Below are positions 31,101 to 37,100 of a stretch of DNA of 48,880 bases, piece after piece. This stretch comes from a virus (lineage: Duplodnaviria; Heunggongvirae; Uroviricota; Caudoviricetes): the IMG/VR virus record IMGVR_UViG_2877274432_000013; one strand, given 5' to 3'. Within the stretch, counting starts at the first letter, position 1; each line of letters starts with the position of its first letter. Made by a program: the position numbers.

Positions 31101-34100
31101 GTGATTCGAGAATGCCACGATCTTTTGCATCAATTTCCGAAGTGATGCGAATGCCTTTGCGGGTCATATCATCCGGGATAGCATCGACTGCTTCGCCGAT
31201 GATCCAGGATGAACGATAGGACCATTCCACCAGCATGCGGTTACGACTGGTGAAATTAGCCCGGTAGGTAGATGCTGAGTGCTGGTTAGGTGTCTGCATC
31301 CCTACGCGGGCAATAAAATTCTCATAACCATCAGCTGTGGCCTGCGCAGTTCGCCGCAGGGCTTGTTTGTTTCGTGCCATCAGGCCTGTCTCCCTAGCAG
31401 CTCCCAGATGTTCAGGGCTGAATTCATTGGGGCATAGTTGATCATCACCGAGTCGGCAAGGTTTGGCGACCGGGTTCCATCAGGCTGTTTATCAATAACG
31501 ATTTTTCCCACACCATTAATGGAATAGGTCGGCTGCGAAAGCTCGATGATGAGTTTATCTTTGAGTGCCATGCTACTGCTGATTGAGATGATTTCGTCCG
31601 GGTTGTAAGCCATACCTTCAACCACGGCGCGCCAGGTATTCTGAAAAAGTTTACGTAACCGCCACCAGCTCTGGGCTTTGGCGTTAGCGAAGAAGTCCTT
31701 GTTCAGACGTGCGGCTTGCCCGTTATCCCCGCGAACAGCTTCATCATCCGGATCAAATACCGCGCCACTACCTCGAAACGGTGTGGCGAGTATTGACGGT
31801 CGACGCGCAGCGTTACGCAGTTCGTTGATAGCGCGTGCATCGCCGCGAACGCCAGCGCCCAGTCCGTCCTCGTCAAAGCGAAACTCTTCGAGGTTATCCT
31901 GTTCGCAAAAGCCGAAAACCTTCTCGACGGACTGATAAATGTCGCTGCCCACACCGGACCATTCCCGCACATTTTCCAGGAGGAAGCCATGACGGGTGGA
32001 AAAGGCATTTTTGTCCCTGCCTTCGTCGGCGACATCCATCGCGCCAAGTCGTTTGCCTGTTGGCTGGATACCCAGTTTGATATGCGCATCAACGGCAGCC
32101 TGTACCCATTCGGATGGAATCAGGACGCCTTCCGCTGATGCGCTGTAGTTCAGATCAAGTTCCTGCGCCACCACCACCGGATTGTCGATTTTCTCGCACT
32201 CCCTGCGATACCACTCTTCATCCTTGCGCGGGTCATCCCGCCAGTGGAATGTGAATACCGGTATCTTCCCGCCGTGACGCTTCTGCGCGAACGGGTTCGC
32301 CATGCCGTTAACCGAACTCAGGTCGATACGGCAACGCGTCGTTTGTGACAACGCCGCATCAATCAGCAGAGGACGCTGAAGGAATGCAGCCTCATCAACC
32401 AGATAAAGCGTGGTACGGTCACCACGACCAATATTATCGCCAGCCTCGCCTTTGATAACGGCACCAGTATCAGGAAACTCAACACGCATATATGGCGCGT
32501 GCTTCTTCTCGCTCCACGAACCGCGAAACTCTACAGGTAGTGTTTCCACGAACTTGCGCGCCTTCCAGAACAATGCTTTCGGGTCACCGGTGCTGTCGAC
32601 GTATTCCTCTTTACGGGAGCCGAAACCGATAACCATTTCTTTATTGAAGAGACAAAGCGAGCAGGCCAGTCCGATCGCGGTCCAACTGAGCCCCATTTCA
32701 CGGGATTTTTCGGTAATACCATTCTCCCGATTACCCCAGCGTTCCATAATCCAGTGGATCCACTCCTCCTGCTTAGGGAAGAGTAAAAACGGAATGGTCA
32801 CCGGCAGGCCATAATCAATATTACGCGGGTCCGTTGTCATGCCCCAGTCGATGATGAACTGAGCCGGATTGGTTCGGTAAAACTGTTTTAGTGCAGGCAA
32901 TATTTCAGGATTCTGGCGAATGCGCTGTAGGCGTTCCATCCGCCATTCAAAAACTATCTGGTAATCAGGATGTTTAAAATCGAAGGGGAATGGTAACGGC
33001 ATACTTAGCCCATCATTTTTCTATACGCCTCTGCAGCCTGCTCCGGCGTTAAGTTGGTAATTTCTGTTCTGACTGGTCCTCCGTCAGCACCAGTCACTTC
33101 ATTTTTGACATTGTCTTTAAACGCCTGAACAGAAACATGACGCCCGAGCAATTCAAGGTTTTTAACCTTATCAGGCCATTTGATTTTCTTCAGAAGTGCG
33201 GCGCTATCTGCGGATGCCATCTCCACGACATCCATTCCTGATAGCGTTGTGCGCCATACCTTAGGCCAGTCTTTAATGGGCTTTAGCTCACCGTTTTGCA
33301 GGAGAATGTCGAGCACATCCATCTGGTCGATTTCAATAAGGCGATTAAGTACATATTCTGCATTAATACCAACAAGATCATTGCGTTGTGCTTTCAGTTC
33401 GGCGATTCTGAGTTGTATGTCAGGTTTTGACATGTTTTCGGACGCAGTACGGTTGGCTGTTTTTGCGCTGTACCCCGCCCGAATAGCCGCTTGCGTGGCG
33501 TTTAAATCGATGAGGTACTCGCGACAGAACATTTCTTGCTTGTCGGTGAGTGCCATTTAATTACCTTTGGGAGATGCCCAATGAGTTTAGAAAAATTACT
33601 AATCAAAAACAGAAAGTGCGGTTCATGCTCTGTGTGCTGCACTTCGCTACGAATTGAACAGCCAACGTTAAAAAAGTTGGCTGACATCCCATGCCAGCAC
33701 CTTAAACATCAGGGAGGATGTGCAATTTATGATGAACGCCCTTCTGTTTGCCGCACTTGGTATTGCGGATGGCGAATTCTGGATATAGGACCAGAGATGC
33801 GTCCTGATCGGAGTGGAGTTCTAATCCGTTATGATGGATCATCACTCTGCTTTCAACCCGTAGACAAAAACCGCGTATCTGCTTTGATCGAACCAGAGCC
33901 TCTGCGAATTTTGGGTGGCCTGATAGATCAAGGTATGAAAGTGGAAATATCGGTTCCAACAAAGGAAGGGTATTGCTCAGCCAATATTAATGTCACTGAG
34001 CATATGTCAGAGGTTGTAAAAAGCAGAGAGTATGTAAAAATGCGTTCGGCTCTTTTGGCGCTCATTCAATTCGCATCACGAGCAAAGACAGATCCAGTAG

Positions 34101-37100
34101 AACCGCTGGAATGATTATTCAGGTCGGGTTTAACACCCGGCTTTTTGAAATGGTACTCATTGCATCGCTTAATTTTCTTTAAATGAGAAACGTCCTCTTT
34201 CTTAACTGAAGACATTAATTCTTTATCAGTTCGAACATTCATTTTTTTCCATTGCATGATCTTCGCTAATTTATAATTTGCAGTTCTCCTGCAACGATTT
34301 GTTATGTGATAGGATATCTCTCTTCGTTTGGCGGTCCATTACTTCAATATCGTGATCATTAAGGTATAGGCTTTGTAATGCCTACATGGTTAAATGATTT
34401 GCCAGTCTTCAGCCATCAGGTCGCCAATGGATGGAGCCCATGTAGCAAGGCGGTTCTGTGAGTTTTTCAATACAAGCGTGTCATTGAAAGTTGGCTCGCC
34501 AACATATTCGCCAAAGCCATAACCCAACGCAGACGCTAATTTTTCTCCTTTCACGAGATAAACAAACTGATCTTTCCCATTCCATCCTGCCCGCTGCAAA
34601 CTTTTGCCCTGTTTTAACGCTTCCATGGCAAGGCCGAAACTTAGCCCTGATACCGGACGATAAGCCTTTTCGAATACTTCTTTTGGACTCCAGCTAACGT
34701 AGCCATCAAAGCGATCGGTGTTAGGTTTTCCGCCATCCAGATATTCAACCAGATAGCCTTCGTCCTCGCCGTTTTCTCCGGCAGGAAGCTGCCAGCCACG
34801 AAAATCGTTATATGCCTGTCTCGTCATCGGAAAGGCGTTAATCAGTTTTACGCCAATATGCTGGGTCATAAAATTACCTATGGAGTTGGGAATAAAAAAA
34901 CCCCGCGAATGCGAGGCTAAATCCTGGTGTTTGTGATGACTGGCTCTTATCTCAACGCAGCCCCTTACCGCGCGCCAGATGCTCAATATCAAGCATCAGC
35001 AATGAGATGTTTAATCTGGATTCACTCCAGAAGTGATCACCACCCTGTCTACAGAGCCAGATGTGAAGGATGATGAGTAGAATTATCGCTATCATCGAAG
35101 GCATTGCGTCCTGATGTATTCCTGCAGGTAGTTAACCTGCGCGGTTATCCTGTCGATTCCGCTTCGGAGACGGTAATAATTAAGTTCAGCATCTGCTGTA
35201 AGTCTTGGGCTTTCTCCATCGCCCATGCTGCTGGCTCCGGTCGTTGACTTTGCACAGGTGGCGGCGACTTGCAGGCGCTTACGACCAGCAGAAACATCAG
35301 CACGGAGACTTTCAATAGTCGCGTTAGCATCAGCAAGCTCCTTTGTGTATCTGGCGTCGAGTTCTGCTACGTCACGTTGACGCTTCTGCATATCAGCGAT
35401 GATGGATGTGGCTTTATCTCGCTGTTCTTTGTAGGCGATGGCGTTATCACGGTAATGATTAACAGCCCATGACAGGCAGACGATGATGCAAATAACCAGA
35501 GCGGAGATAATCGCGGTTACTCTGCTCATACCTCAATCTCTCTGACCGTTCCGCCAGCCTCTTTGAATTTTGCAATCAGGCTGTCAGCCTTATGCTCGAA
35601 CTGACCATAACCAGCGCCAGGCAGTGAAGCCCAGATATTGCTGCAACGGTCGATAGCCTGACGAATATCACCGCGATCAATCATCGGTAAAGCGCCACGC
35701 TCTTTAATCTGCTGTAGTGCAACAGCGTCCTGGCTTTTCGGAGAGAAGTCTTTCAGCCCAAGCTGCTTACGGTATGCATCCCACCAACGGGAAAGAAGCT
35801 GGTAACGTCCGGCTGCTGTTGATTTGAGTTTGGGGTTTAGCGTGACAAGTTTGCGAGGGTGATCTGAGTAATCAGTGAATAGCTCTCCACCAACAATGAC
35901 GTCATAACCATGATTTCTGGTTTTCTGCCGTCCGTTATCAGTTCCCTCTGACCACGCCAGCATATCGAGGAACGCCTTACGTTGATTATTGATTTCCACC
36001 ATCTTCTACTCCGGCTTTTTTAGCAGCGAAGCGTTTGATAAGCGAACCAATCGAGTCAGTACCGATGTAGCCGATGAACACGCTCGTTATATAAGCGAGA
36101 TTGCTACTTAGTCCGGCAAGGTCGAGAAGATCACGAATGAACCAGGCGATAATGGCGCACATCGTTGCGTCGATTACTGTTTTTGTAAACGCACCGCCAT
36201 TATATCTGCCGCGAAGGTACGCCATTGCAAACGCAAGGATTGCCCCGATGCCTTGTTCCTTTGCCGCGAGAATGGCGGCTAACAGGTCATGTTTTTCTGG
36301 CATCTTCATGTCTTACCCCCAATAAGGGGATTTGCTCTATTTAATTAGGAATAAGGTCGATTACTGATAGAACAAATCCAGGCTACTGTGTTTAGTAATC
36401 AGATTTGTTCGTGACCGATATGCACGGGCAAAACGGCAGGAGGTTGTTAGCGCGACCTCCTGCCACCCGCTTTCACGAAGGTCATGTGTAGAAGGCCGCA
36501 GCGTAACTATCACTGATGAATTCAGGATAGCCAGTGGCTACGGCTCAGTTATGGTGCTGGTTAACGGACTTGAACCGCTACCCATTCGCTTACAAGGCGA
36601 CTGCTCTACCATTGGAGCTAAACCAGCATGTTTGGCGGGACAGCGTGGACTCGAACCACGATAAGAAGGTTAACAGCCTTCCGTAATGACCTTTATACGA
36701 CTGACCCAAATAAAAAAAGCCACCGTTGCAACTTAAGAGTCACTAACGGCAGCTTACCCTCTAATTATGGCTAAATGGCTAATTGCATGTCAAGGCTTTT
36801 AACGGCAACATGCTTAACTTTCTCAACACGTTTACGCATTTTGAAAGCATTTTGCATTGGTTGGTACAAAACAAATAACGACGCTTTCAGGATGTCGTCA
36901 ATTTCATTTCTACAGGTTGCCAGTGAAGGTTTTCTCCATCCCTCACCACCACGCCCACACATCTTGCGTGGCTTTGCAGTCGCGTGATAGTAGGATGCAA
37001 TTGCTCGCTTAGATGAACCATGAGCGTAGTAGCTGAGGAGGATGCCAAAGGCTTTCTTGTCAATGTACATGACGGAATCGACGACCTGAGAAATCAACAT

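What the first reader, a model, noticed from the sequence alone, without database searches (positions are those of the whole stretch)
33581..34146. Antisense YkgJ-type cysteine-cluster gene at the bor-like position between lysis and packaging genes
This is the only plus-strand gene in roughly 22 kb of minus-strand late genes. It has its own ribosome-binding site and terminator and encodes a CxxCxxCC metal-binding protein with a C-terminal extension of about 70 aa. Lambda's lysogen-expressed conversion gene bor occupies the same position and orientation, so this gene is likely expressed from the prophage and acts on the host.
Basis: partly seen in the sequence, partly recalled or inferred. Interest (0 to 1): 0.55.

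Follow-up and report, generated by a model that had tools for sequence, protein, structure and literature searches.

The report
Antisense Cys-cluster moron beside terminase gene
A real, selection-maintained prophage gene for a cysteine-cluster (probably iron-sulfur) protein sits backwards in a swap-in cargo slot beside the small terminase gene, the slot that holds pid in phage P22; what it does is still unknown.

Summary
A 177-aa ORF (33581-34114, +) has a GGGAG ribosome-binding site 7 nt upstream and a hairpin plus T5 terminator ending at 34146. It lies antisense in about 23 kb of minus-strand late genes.

The gene is real. dN/dS is 0.09-0.12. It keeps this position and orientation in about 30 prophage contigs, down to 42% identity.

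The gene belongs to a 0.8-kb, low-GC mobile cassette (33571-34366). The cassette also carries a conserved small convergent ORF (34066-34257, -).

The cassette sits in a hypervariable slot next to terS. In 110 related contigs that slot holds at least 35 unrelated antisense cargo genes. One sequenced relative has an empty slot.

The 260 bp upstream, inside terS, is homologous to the mapped promoter and 5'UTR of the P22/BTP1 moron pid. So pid, not lambda bor, is the closest known analogue.

The protein has an N-terminal domain with eight conserved cysteines of CxxCxxCC type; its Pfam score is just below threshold. It also has a family-specific C-terminal domain with no match to any solved structure.

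Expression in lysogens, and any effect on the host, are inferred and not shown.

Verdict: a genuine moron, a new member of a known kind, of moderate interest.

The parts
33571..34366 (.). Mobile moron cassette: Shine-Dalgarno site, ykgJ-like ORF, terminator, small convergent ORF and about 110 bp beyond it.
   Evidence: blastn boundaries against prophages with unrelated flanks (L071, L072, L073-L079) fall at 33571/33579 and 34357-34366. GC is 41.6% against 51.6% for the late region, and GC3 is 0.37 against 0.58.
33381..33409 (+). Putative weak sigma-70 promoter inside terS. The -35 is TTGCGT (33381-33386), the spacer is 17 nt, and the -10 is GATTCT (33404-33409). It aligns with the mapped P22/BTP1 pid promoter (TTGCTT-17-AATCCT).
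   Evidence: Alignment A3. The pid -10 and TSS were mapped by mutation, GFP fusions and dRNA-seq (PMC8835761). The hexamers are conserved as TTGCG[T/C]-17-[G/A]AT[T/C]CT in most of 120 loci, but terS coding constraint confounds this. The consensus scan did not call it.
33416..33580 (+). Predicted 5'UTR of about 165 nt, fully complementary to terS codons 1-47 and the terS ribosome-binding site. It is homologous to the 174-nt pid 5'UTR.
   Evidence: The TSS position is transferred from BTP1 through alignment A3 (PMC8835761). The predicted fold is -57.8 kcal/mol, z = -2.4. This is an inference, not a measurement.
33569..33573 (+). Shine-Dalgarno sequence GGGAG, 7 nt upstream of the ATG.
   Evidence: Sequence reading. 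The GGAGAT..CAATG block is conserved upstream of homologues that sit in other backbones.
33581..34114 (+). ykgJ-like gene, 177 aa. Residues about 10-78 form the eight-cysteine CxxCxxCC-type domain with WYCGWR and RPDRSG motifs. Residues about 79-177 form a family-specific alpha/beta domain.
34123..34146 (+). Intrinsic terminator: 7-bp stem, 5-nt loop, T5 tail.
   Evidence: RNAfold pairs this stem. Across 8 homologues, 9 pairs are predicted and 3 show compensatory double changes.
34066..34257 (-). Small late-strand ORF (63 aa, or 58 aa from the second ATG). It is convergent with the ykgJ-like gene and overlaps its 3' end by 49 nt. Only the N-terminal ~34 aa are conserved (motif [ST]DxxLM...KxCxx[YF]xFK).
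   Evidence: A profile HMM finds it at the same offset in all 22 contigs at 68% identity or more, and weakly in L089/L090. The motif is also visible in L004 and L011. dN/dS is 0.27-0.70, so constraint is weak. It is annotated as hypothetical in S. flexneri 1a, and the 58-aa form occurs on 568 contigs. It has no Pfam or PHROG family.
33005..33556 (-). Small terminase subunit gene (Terminase_2). Its 5' end hosts the putative antisense promoter and UTR. Its start codon is only 24 bp from the ykgJ-like ATG.
   Evidence: PF03592, E = 2e-39. Sequence reading.

Best explanation
What it is. Positions 33571-34366 are a horizontally mobile moron cassette. It sits in a hypervariable antisense cargo slot next to the small-terminase gene of a lambdoid prophage with a Q-dependent late operon.

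Shown:
- The 177-aa gene is under strong purifying selection.
- In enterobacterial prophages it is always antisense between the lysis and packaging modules.
- It travels with its own Shine-Dalgarno site, a covarying intrinsic terminator and a small convergent late-strand ORF.
- The slot holds dozens of unrelated alternative genes, or none, in related phages.

Inferred, transcription. The gene is transcribed independently of the late operon. The likely promoter is a weak constitutive sigma-70 promoter embedded in terS codons about 50-59, homologous to P22 Ppid. The predicted transcript is about 730 nt, running from about 33416 to 34146. Its 165-nt leader is antisense to the terS 5' end. Expression would be low in the lysogen and would rise with phage copy number, as for pid. 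Q-driven late transcription running head-on through the gene would shut it down.

Inferred, protein. It is cytoplasmic. Its eight invariant or near-invariant cysteines bind a metal centre, most likely a [4Fe-4S] cluster. This is by analogy with FliB, which carries a similar cysteine motif. FliB and DpdM, a phage homologue of E. coli YkgJ, are both methyltransferases.

Committed mechanism. My best guess is an oxygen- or redox-sensitive Fe-S enzyme whose variable C-terminal domain selects a host or incoming-phage macromolecule for covalent modification. The benefit to the lysogen would be conversion or exclusion, not virion production.
For: - ORF, ribosome-binding site and terminator.
- Purifying selection.
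- Conserved antisense position in Rahnella and Providencia prophages and in about 30 IMG/VR contigs at 42-100% identity, with different lysis cassettes and terminases.
- Cassette boundaries and low GC.
- Alternative cargo at the same site in sister prophages.
- All 110 usable related contigs have an antisense ORF there, falling into at least 35 clusters, with the ykgJ-like gene in 4.
- Empty site in phage vB_EcoM-611R5.
- Upstream region homologous to the mapped pid promoter and UTR: with PMC8835761.
- pid is highly transcribed in BTP1 lysogens: PMC7067206.
- Eight conserved cysteines and the PF03692 hit.
- The GCxIYxxRPxxCR stretch aligns to E. coli YkgJ.
- FliB is a [4Fe-4S]/SAM methyltransferase with eight conserved cysteines: PMC8598068.
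- DpdM, a YkgJ homologue, is a phage preQ1 methyltransferase.
Against: - No consensus promoter was found. The pid-homologous hexamers each match the consensus at only 3 of 6 positions. Their conservation cannot be separated from terS coding constraint.
- In other backbones (L073) no promoter-like site lies upstream.
- In P22, lysogen-level pid expression gives no phenotype.
- The Pfam score is below the gathering threshold, and only 19 of 52 family members match at E no higher than 0.01. The hhalign probability against YkgJ is only 47% over 16 columns.
- There is no hit to DUF3109 (the DpdM family), NCBIfam or PADLOC.
- The C-terminal domain has no structural relative of known function.
- Chromosomal homologues have no conserved neighbourhood.
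- The enzymatic role is therefore analogy only.
Confidence: 0.6

Rival explanations
1. Infection-time or lytic-cycle accessory function. The protein acts when the phage genome enters or replicates, for example as an anti-defence factor or a modifier of phage or host nucleic acid or protein. It would not be a lysogenic-conversion factor. The antisense orientation would simply uncouple it from Q-dependent late timing.
For: - The pid phenotype appears only in the carrier state or at high copy number, not in lysogens.
- The adjacent late-strand gene is a Tad2-like DUF2829 protein (PF11195, 1e-21), so anti-defence cargo lives in this region.
- The one characterised phage relative in the superfamily, DpdM, modifies phage DNA.
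- Short homologues occur in strictly lytic T4-like cyanophages.
Against: - No DUF3109 hit.
- No dpdA or preQ genes were seen in the parts of the window I scanned.
- Antisense placement with a private terminator is the classic signature of lysogen-expressed morons such as bor and pid.
- Head-on late transcription would oppose expression during lytic growth.
Confidence: 0.2
2. The RNA is the main effector. The leader, complementary to the terS ribosome-binding site and first 47 codons, silences leaky terminase expression or excludes superinfecting relatives that share this highly conserved terS 5' end. The ORFs in the slot would be exchangeable passengers.
For: - The promoter and leader region is shared by at least 120 contigs whatever the cargo.
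- The two start codons are only 24 bp apart.
- A BTP1 antisense RNA against structural genes causes superinfection exclusion (PMC7067206).
- The predicted leader is structured, z = -2.4.
Against: - Conservation of the region is fully explained by terS coding constraint.
- In P22 the terS copy is a dead relic, yet the locus still works through the Pid protein.
- The ykgJ-like ORF is under strong purifying selection. It also occurs away from terS in other backbones.
Confidence: 0.1
3. A decaying or chance ORF with no function.
For: - The Pfam hit is sub-threshold.
- Some database entries are 105-111-aa fragments, and one contig (L085) has a broken ORF.
Against: - dN/dS is 0.09-0.12.
- Length is conserved at about 177 aa over 42-100% identity.
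- The exact sequence occurs on 591 contigs.
- The AF2 model is confident.
Confidence: 0.01

Closest known systems
P22/BTP1 pid moron locus (Cenens 2013, PMC3573128; Wolput 2022, PMC8835761)
   Same: - Same slot: antisense to the late operon, between the lysis genes and the packaging genes.
- The roughly 260 bp upstream is homologous, including the mapped -35, -10, TSS and long 5'UTR.
- Both have a Rho-independent terminator straight after a short ORF.
- In both cases related phages have another insert or none at the site.
   Different: - The cargo protein is unrelated: Pid is an 86-aa ORFan, while this is a 177-aa cysteine-cluster protein.
- Here the promoter and UTR lie inside an intact terS. 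In P22/BTP1 they lie in a decayed terS relic.
- The -10 differs at two positions (GATTCT against AATCCT).
- This cassette also carries a convergent small ORF.
Lambda bor
   Same: It lies downstream of the lysis genes, is transcribed against the late operon, is expressed from the prophage (established knowledge; PMC7067206), and is a single-gene moron.
   Different: - No sequence or predicted structural relationship was found.
- Bor is a secreted outer-membrane lipoprotein (established knowledge). This protein has no signal peptide or lipobox and is predicted to be a soluble metal-binding protein.
- bor sits next to Rz, whereas this gene abuts terS.
PF03692 CxxCxxCC / YkgJ superfamily, including FliB and the related DUF3109 protein DpdM
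   Same: - N-terminal CxxCxxCC motif, eight conserved cysteines in all, and a GCxIYxxRPxxCR block that aligns to E. coli YkgJ.
- FliB has eight conserved cysteines, and four of them bind one [4Fe-4S] cluster.
   Different: - The Pfam score is below the gathering threshold.
- The family has its own WYCGWR and RPDRSG motifs and a roughly 100-aa C-terminal domain that the 109-aa YkgJ lacks.
- FliB's motif is CX4CX3CC.
- There is no DUF3109 hit.
- No substrate or SAM-binding evidence exists.

Membership tests
PF03692 CxxCxxCC / YkgJ family | N-terminal CxxCxxCC motif | tested here: met
   C13-x2-C16-x2-C19-C20, conserved in at least 90% of 52 aligned family members.
PF03692 CxxCxxCC / YkgJ family | Eight conserved cysteines in all | tested here: met
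   C13, C16, C19, C20, C38, C47, C57 and C62 are invariant or conserved in at least 90% of sequences.
PF03692 CxxCxxCC / YkgJ family | Profile score above Pfam's gathering threshold | tested here: not met
   21.1 bits against a cut-off of 23, E = 5e-4. Only 19 of 52 family members match at E no higher than 0.01. No NCBIfam model matches. The RefSeq name 'YkgJ family' therefore rests on a marginal match.
PF03692 CxxCxxCC / YkgJ family | Alignable to E. coli YkgJ itself | tested here: inconclusive
   hhalign probability 47%, E = 2e-4, covering only 16 columns (GCAIYDERPSVCRTWY against CCTIYKNRSSTCREFA).
PF03692 CxxCxxCC / YkgJ family | Binds Zn or an Fe-S cluster | not testable with these tools
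   Needs purified protein. For FliB this was shown by EPR and Mossbauer spectroscopy (PMC8598068).
Moron (independently transcribed accessory cassette in a prophage) | Present at a site where close relatives have nothing or something else | tested here: met
   L002 and L003 carry other genes there. There are at least 35 cargo clusters in 110 contigs. Phage vB_EcoM-611R5 has an empty site.
Moron (independently transcribed accessory cassette in a prophage) | Own transcription terminator | tested here: met
   Hairpin plus T5 at 34123-34146, with compensatory changes in 3 of 9 pairs.
Moron (independently transcribed accessory cassette in a prophage) | Own promoter | tested here: inconclusive
   No consensus promoter. 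Weak hexamers are homologous to the experimentally mapped Ppid (PMC8835761). The cassette boundary at 33571 excludes the promoter, so the slot supplies it and the cassette does not.
Moron (independently transcribed accessory cassette in a prophage) | Base composition differs from the flanks | tested here: met
   GC 41.6% against 51.6%; GC3 0.37 against 0.58.
Moron (independently transcribed accessory cassette in a prophage) | Transcribed in the repressed prophage | not testable with these tools
   Only the analogy is available: pid shows TPM>100 in BTP1 lysogens (PMC7067206).
Lambda Bor family | Sequence homology to Bor, with a lipoprotein signal peptide | tested here: not met
   The Pfam scan at E no higher than 0.1 returned only PF03692. 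The N-terminus MSLEKLLIKNRKCGSC has no hydrophobic signal or lipobox.
Lambda Bor family | Antisense position between the lysis genes and the packaging end | tested here: met
   Gene order is Q, tRNAs, holin, lysozyme, Rz, DUF2829, [ykgJ-like, antisense], terS, TerL.
P22 pid locus | Homologous promoter and 5'UTR upstream of the cargo ORF | tested here: met
   Alignment A3: an 84-bp core at 94% identity and extended homology over about 260 bp, including the -35, -10 and TSS region.
P22 pid locus | Encodes a Pid homologue | tested here: not met
   Pid-type cargo forms a separate cluster from the ykgJ-like cargo.
DpdM (DUF3109) preQ1 methyltransferase | DUF3109 profile match, with dpdA and preQ-pathway genes in the same phage | tested here: not met
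   No DUF3109 hit. The early region encodes O, P, NinB, Dam, NinG, a phosphatase and Q, and no dpdA or queuosine gene appeared among the ORFs scanned. The window was not scanned exhaustively.
FliB-type [4Fe-4S]/SAM methyltransferase | Cluster-binding cysteine motif plus SAM-dependent methyl transfer | not testable with these tools
   The motif here is CX2CX2CC, against CX4CX3CC in FliB.

The most novel reading that the evidence does not exclude
The ykgJ-like gene and the small convergent late-strand ORF form a two-part system. An Fe-S (possibly SAM-dependent) enzyme is made from the repressed or newly arrived phage genome and blocks competing phages or rewires a host pathway. The small protein is made only when the Q-dependent late operon fires. 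Together with head-on transcription it neutralises the enzyme, so the prophage is immune to its own weapon. This would be the logic of BstA with its anti-BstA element (my recollection, not checked here). More broadly, the slot beside terS would be an unrecognised hotspot holding dozens of uncharacterised conversion or defence genes that share one embedded promoter.
Probability: 0.15. Interest if true: 0.75.

Novelty: new member of a known kind. Interest (0 to 1): 0.45.

Why it matters
If the inference holds, the gene would be another case of a cysteine-cluster, FliB/DpdM-like protein in phage biology, here carried as prophage accessory cargo. Only two such proteins have a known activity so far, and both are unusual methyltransferases.

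The context may matter more than the gene:
- A single conserved slot abutting the small terminase gene carries at least 35 unrelated, almost entirely uncharacterised antisense genes. All of them sit behind what appears to be the same embedded weak promoter.
- This gives a defined, easily cloned panel of candidate lysogenic-conversion or defence genes.
- It also suggests where the 'exceptionally long 5'UTR' of P22 pid came from: it is the antisense of a dead terminase gene.

The host here is probably Shigella or E. coli, so any effect on the host could have medical relevance. None has been shown.

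Tried and rejected
- Known defence or anti-defence family: no PADLOC hit for the protein, the small ORF, the neighbouring gene or ten alternative cargo proteins. The one weak match (E = 0.006) was disregarded.
- NCBIfam: no model matches.
- Guilt by association for chromosomal homologues: two alphaproteobacterial contigs place the gene 4 bp downstream of a 1200-aa hydantoinase A/B fusion. Across 53 genome loci, however, no neighbour recurs in more than 4. L057 is the only other locus with the hydantoinase link. I dropped this as a general clue.
- Obligate partnership with the 485-aa GT2-like gene next to many homologues: rejected, because that gene is absent here and fragmented elsewhere.
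- Obligate link to the Tad2-like DUF2829 gene: rejected, because the cassette boundary at 34366 excludes it and other cassette copies lack it.
- Known RNA family: none in 33000-35200.
- Consensus promoter upstream in other backbones: none in L073 and only chance-level sites in L081.
- Isolated-phage records: none carries the gene.

Full report
THE OBSERVATION

It runs from ATG 33581 to TGA 34112-34114 and encodes 177 aa. GGGAG lies at 33569-33573, 7 nt before the ATG. A 7-bp hairpin at 34123-34141 is followed by T5 ending at 34146.

The minus-strand neighbours give this order:
- portal, 29914-31380
- TerL, 31380-33002
- terS, 33005-33556 (PF03592, E = 2e-39)
- a Tad2-like DUF2829 gene, 34390-34869
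- Rz, lysozyme and holin, 35092-36309
- tRNA-Thr and tRNA-Asn, 36552-36707
- Q, 36771-37289

All long ORFs from 12676 to 36309 are on the minus strand. Phage vB_EcoM-611R5 shares the structural genes at 97% identity, and every late gene from the side tail fibre gene to the holin is co-oriented. The 'only plus-strand gene in about 22 kb' claim stands. RefSeq annotates the same 177-aa product as 'YkgJ family cysteine cluster protein', WP_001525208.1.

IS IT A REAL GENE?

Yes.
- dN/dS against homologues at 72-94% nucleotide identity is 0.09-0.12.
- The exact protein occurs on 591 contigs.
- A word-indexed search found 57 relatives of 165-238 aa, excluding three short fragments.
- A profile search found 249 full-length 50%-identity clusters at E<1e-30.
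- The alignment shows eight conserved cysteines (C13, C16, C19, C20, C38, C47, C57, C62). It also shows the family motifs WYCGWR and RPDRSG.
- AlphaFold2 gives a confident two-domain model, with pLDDT 90.8 and pTM 0.86.

The region after residue 78 is a conserved domain of about 100 aa in every member. It is not an extension.

FAMILY ASSIGNMENT

The Pfam PF03692 (CxxCxxCC) hit is marginal: 21.1 bits against a cut-off of 23. Only 19 of 52 members match at E no higher than 0.01. hhalign to E. coli YkgJ (109 aa) aligns only the GCxIYxxRPxxCR block, at 47% probability. NCBIfam and PADLOC give nothing.

Two related proteins have a known activity:
- FliB is a [4Fe-4S]- and SAM-dependent flagellin lysine methyltransferase with eight conserved cysteines and a similar cysteine motif (PMC8598068).
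- DpdM is a DUF3109 protein with E. coli YkgJ as a homologue. It is a phage preQ1 methyltransferase (bioRxiv 10.1101/2023.04.13.536721).

This protein has no DUF3109 hit. The scanned parts of the window contain no dpdA or preQ genes.

POSITION AND ORIENTATION ARE CONSERVED

Homologues at 57% identity (Rahnella), 51% (Providencia) and 38% sit antisense between the lysis cassette and the terminase genes.

I ran a crude ORF and blastp labelling of 80 IMG/VR loci. The same arrangement appeared in about 30 prophage contigs at 42-100% identity. These had different endolysins (GH19 or lysozyme) and different packaging modules.

More distant relatives (about 27-43% identity) are chromosomal, in Alphaproteobacteria, Burkholderiales and Dyella. 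They have no recurrent neighbour. Two contigs couple the gene to a hydantoinase A/B fusion gene, with a third, looser case in L057. That link does not generalise.

IT IS A MOBILE CASSETTE IN A HYPERVARIABLE SLOT

blastn against prophages with unrelated flanks puts the shared segment at 33571-34366. It contains the Shine-Dalgarno site, the ORF, the terminator and a small minus-strand ORF. Its GC is 41.6% against 51.6% for the late region, and GC3 is 0.37 against 0.58.

The terminator hairpin is retained with compensatory changes in 3 of 9 pairs across 8 homologues.

Only 5 of 5,426 complete E. coli genomes carry the cassette. Where I inspected it (strain SCU-124), it lies in a P22-like prophage with a different TerL and portal.

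Sister prophages with this window's backbone carry unrelated plus-strand genes of 143 and 151 aa starting at the same place.

I then pulled 120 IMG/VR contigs that share an invariant 34-mer in the terS 5' end. All 110 contigs with enough flank have an antisense ORF of at least 40 aa, in most cases beginning about 20-30 bp past the terS start codon. These ORFs fall into at least 35 unrelated clusters. The ykgJ-like gene accounts for 4 and Pid for 3. Representatives match only DUFs (DUF6173, DUF2441, DUF2158) and nothing credible in PADLOC.

vB_EcoM-611R5 has the empty site, with Rz followed directly by terS. L071 and L072 show two plus-strand cargo genes in tandem.

THE PID CONNECTION

An 84-bp stretch at 33475-33558 matches P22-like phages at 94% identity. 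In BTP1 it lies just upstream of pid.

The extended alignment shows that about 260 bp upstream of the ykgJ-like ATG is homologous to the pid upstream region. This stretch is the antisense of the terS 5' end. The homology includes the experimentally mapped promoter and 174-nt 5'UTR of pid. That promoter has its -10 (AATCCT) at -186 to -181 and its TSS at -174. It is weak and leaky. The mRNA is stabilised by a Rho-independent terminator (PMC8835761).

The window equivalents are:
- -35 TTGCGT, 33381-33386
- 17-nt spacer
- -10 GATTCT, 33404-33409
- TSS at about 33416

The same hexamers occur in most of the 120 loci. That conservation is confounded by terS coding. The generic promoter scan finds nothing here.

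Published evidence on pid is mixed:
- It is a 'genuine moron', divergently transcribed, at a site where relatives have no insert or another one (PMC3573128).
- It is among the five most highly expressed BTP1 prophage genes (TPM>100) in lysogens (PMC7067206).
- In P22 its phenotype needs the carrier state or a promoter-up mutation.

Expression of the ykgJ-like gene from the prophage is therefore plausible by homology. It remains unproven.

THE SMALL CONVERGENT ORF

ORF 34066-34257 (minus strand, 63 aa, or 58 aa from the second ATG) overlaps the 3' end of the ykgJ-like gene by 49 nt and runs through the terminator.

- Its N-terminal ~34 residues are conserved at the same offset in all 22 contigs at 68% identity or more, and weakly in L089/L090.
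- The motif is also visible in the Rahnella locus L004 and in L011.
- The tail shifts frame between lineages.
- dN/dS is 0.27-0.70, so constraint is weak.
- It has no family.
- It is annotated as hypothetical in Shigella flexneri 1a.

It would be transcribed only with the late operon. I treat it as a probable partner gene of unknown role.

HOW IT MOST LIKELY WORKS

Shown: this is a selected, mobile, terminator-equipped antisense cassette in a cargo slot.

Inferred:
- A weak constitutive promoter inside terS gives low expression in the lysogen.
- Expression rises with genome copy number.
- Head-on Q-dependent late transcription silences the gene during lytic growth.

Inferred by analogy: the eight cysteines hold a [4Fe-4S] or similar centre, and the variable C-terminal domain selects a target for modification.

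Rivals:
- An infection-time or anti-defence role (0.2).
- An RNA-level role of the terS-antisense leader (0.1).
- A non-functional ORF (0.01).

COMPARISON AND NOVELTY

The positional analogy with lambda bor is correct. There is no homology to Bor and no lipoprotein signal. The true nearest neighbour is the pid locus, which shares its regulatory DNA but not its protein.

The gene is already annotated, and the moron concept is well known. I therefore rate this a new member of a known kind.

The less expected results concern the context: the size and uniformity of the terS-adjacent slot, the terS origin of the pid promoter and UTR, and the convergent small ORF.

Interest is 0.45.

Noticed in passing
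L012 (BTP1, LT714109.2) 455-717, minus strand; window 33300-33556: The promoter and 'exceptionally long' 5'UTR of P22/BTP1 pid are the antisense of a decayed 5' fragment (about 89 codons, one frameshift, two stops) of a Terminase_2-type terS like the intact one in this window (tblastn E = 2e-14). Neither pid paper mentions terminase.
   Followed up: yes
L147-L266 (IMG/VR contigs); window 33557-33600: The site about 20-30 bp past the terS start codon is a hypervariable antisense cargo slot. All 110 usable contigs carry an ORF there, in at least 35 unrelated clusters. Almost all are uncharacterised (DUF6173, DUF2441, DUF2158), and none is credibly in PADLOC.
   Followed up: partly
window 34390-34869 (-): The late-strand gene next to the cassette encodes a Tad2-like (DUF2829, PF11195, E = 1e-21) protein. 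This family includes the anti-Thoeris protein Tad2. It travels with the cassette in the P22-like prophage of E. coli SCU-124 but lies outside the cassette boundary.
   Followed up: partly
window 9640-12442 (+), 1623-2795 (-), 1-819, 3635-4791, 7820-8976: There is a gtrA-gtrB cassette followed by a 506-aa type-specific gtr-like gene (O-antigen glucosylation), an Acyl_transf_3 O-acetyltransferase-like gene, and three IS3-family orfA/orfB copies. Together with the S. flexneri 1a annotation of the small ORF, this suggests a serotype-converting Shigella flexneri prophage that has been disrupted by IS elements.
   Followed up: partly
window 36552-36707 (-): tRNA-Thr (TGT) and tRNA-Asn (GTT) genes lie between Q and the holin gene. 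The sister prophage L003 has the same pair.
   Followed up: no
window 44772-45455 (+): The early-left region contains an Nmad5 (nucleotide modification associated domain 5, PF18757, E = 1e-71) protein. A Dam methyltransferase gene lies at 39482-40069 (-).
   Followed up: no
L008 7001-7552, L009 7001-7540, L057; L036: Distant chromosomal homologues in Alphaproteobacteria: in L008 and L009 the gene overlaps by 4 bp the end of a 1200-aa hydantoinase A/B fusion gene, downstream of CoA-transferase III and a TPP enzyme gene. L057 shows the same neighbouring genes with an ORF in between. In L036 four paralogues appear to sit in tandem.
   Followed up: partly
L004 6386-7840, L011 1826-3283, L088-L096: A late-strand protein of about 485 aa (weak Glycos_transf_2 match in L004) lies next to the ykgJ-like gene in many other prophages. 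It appears fragmented in L077 and L083. It is absent from this window.
   Followed up: partly
L085 5075-5606; proteins P0012, P0015, P0017: Some copies look disrupted or are annotated only from an internal Met, giving 105-121-aa C-terminal fragments. One of these is 100% identical and named in Shigella flexneri. The gene may be decaying in some lineages. The copy in this window is intact.
   Followed up: no
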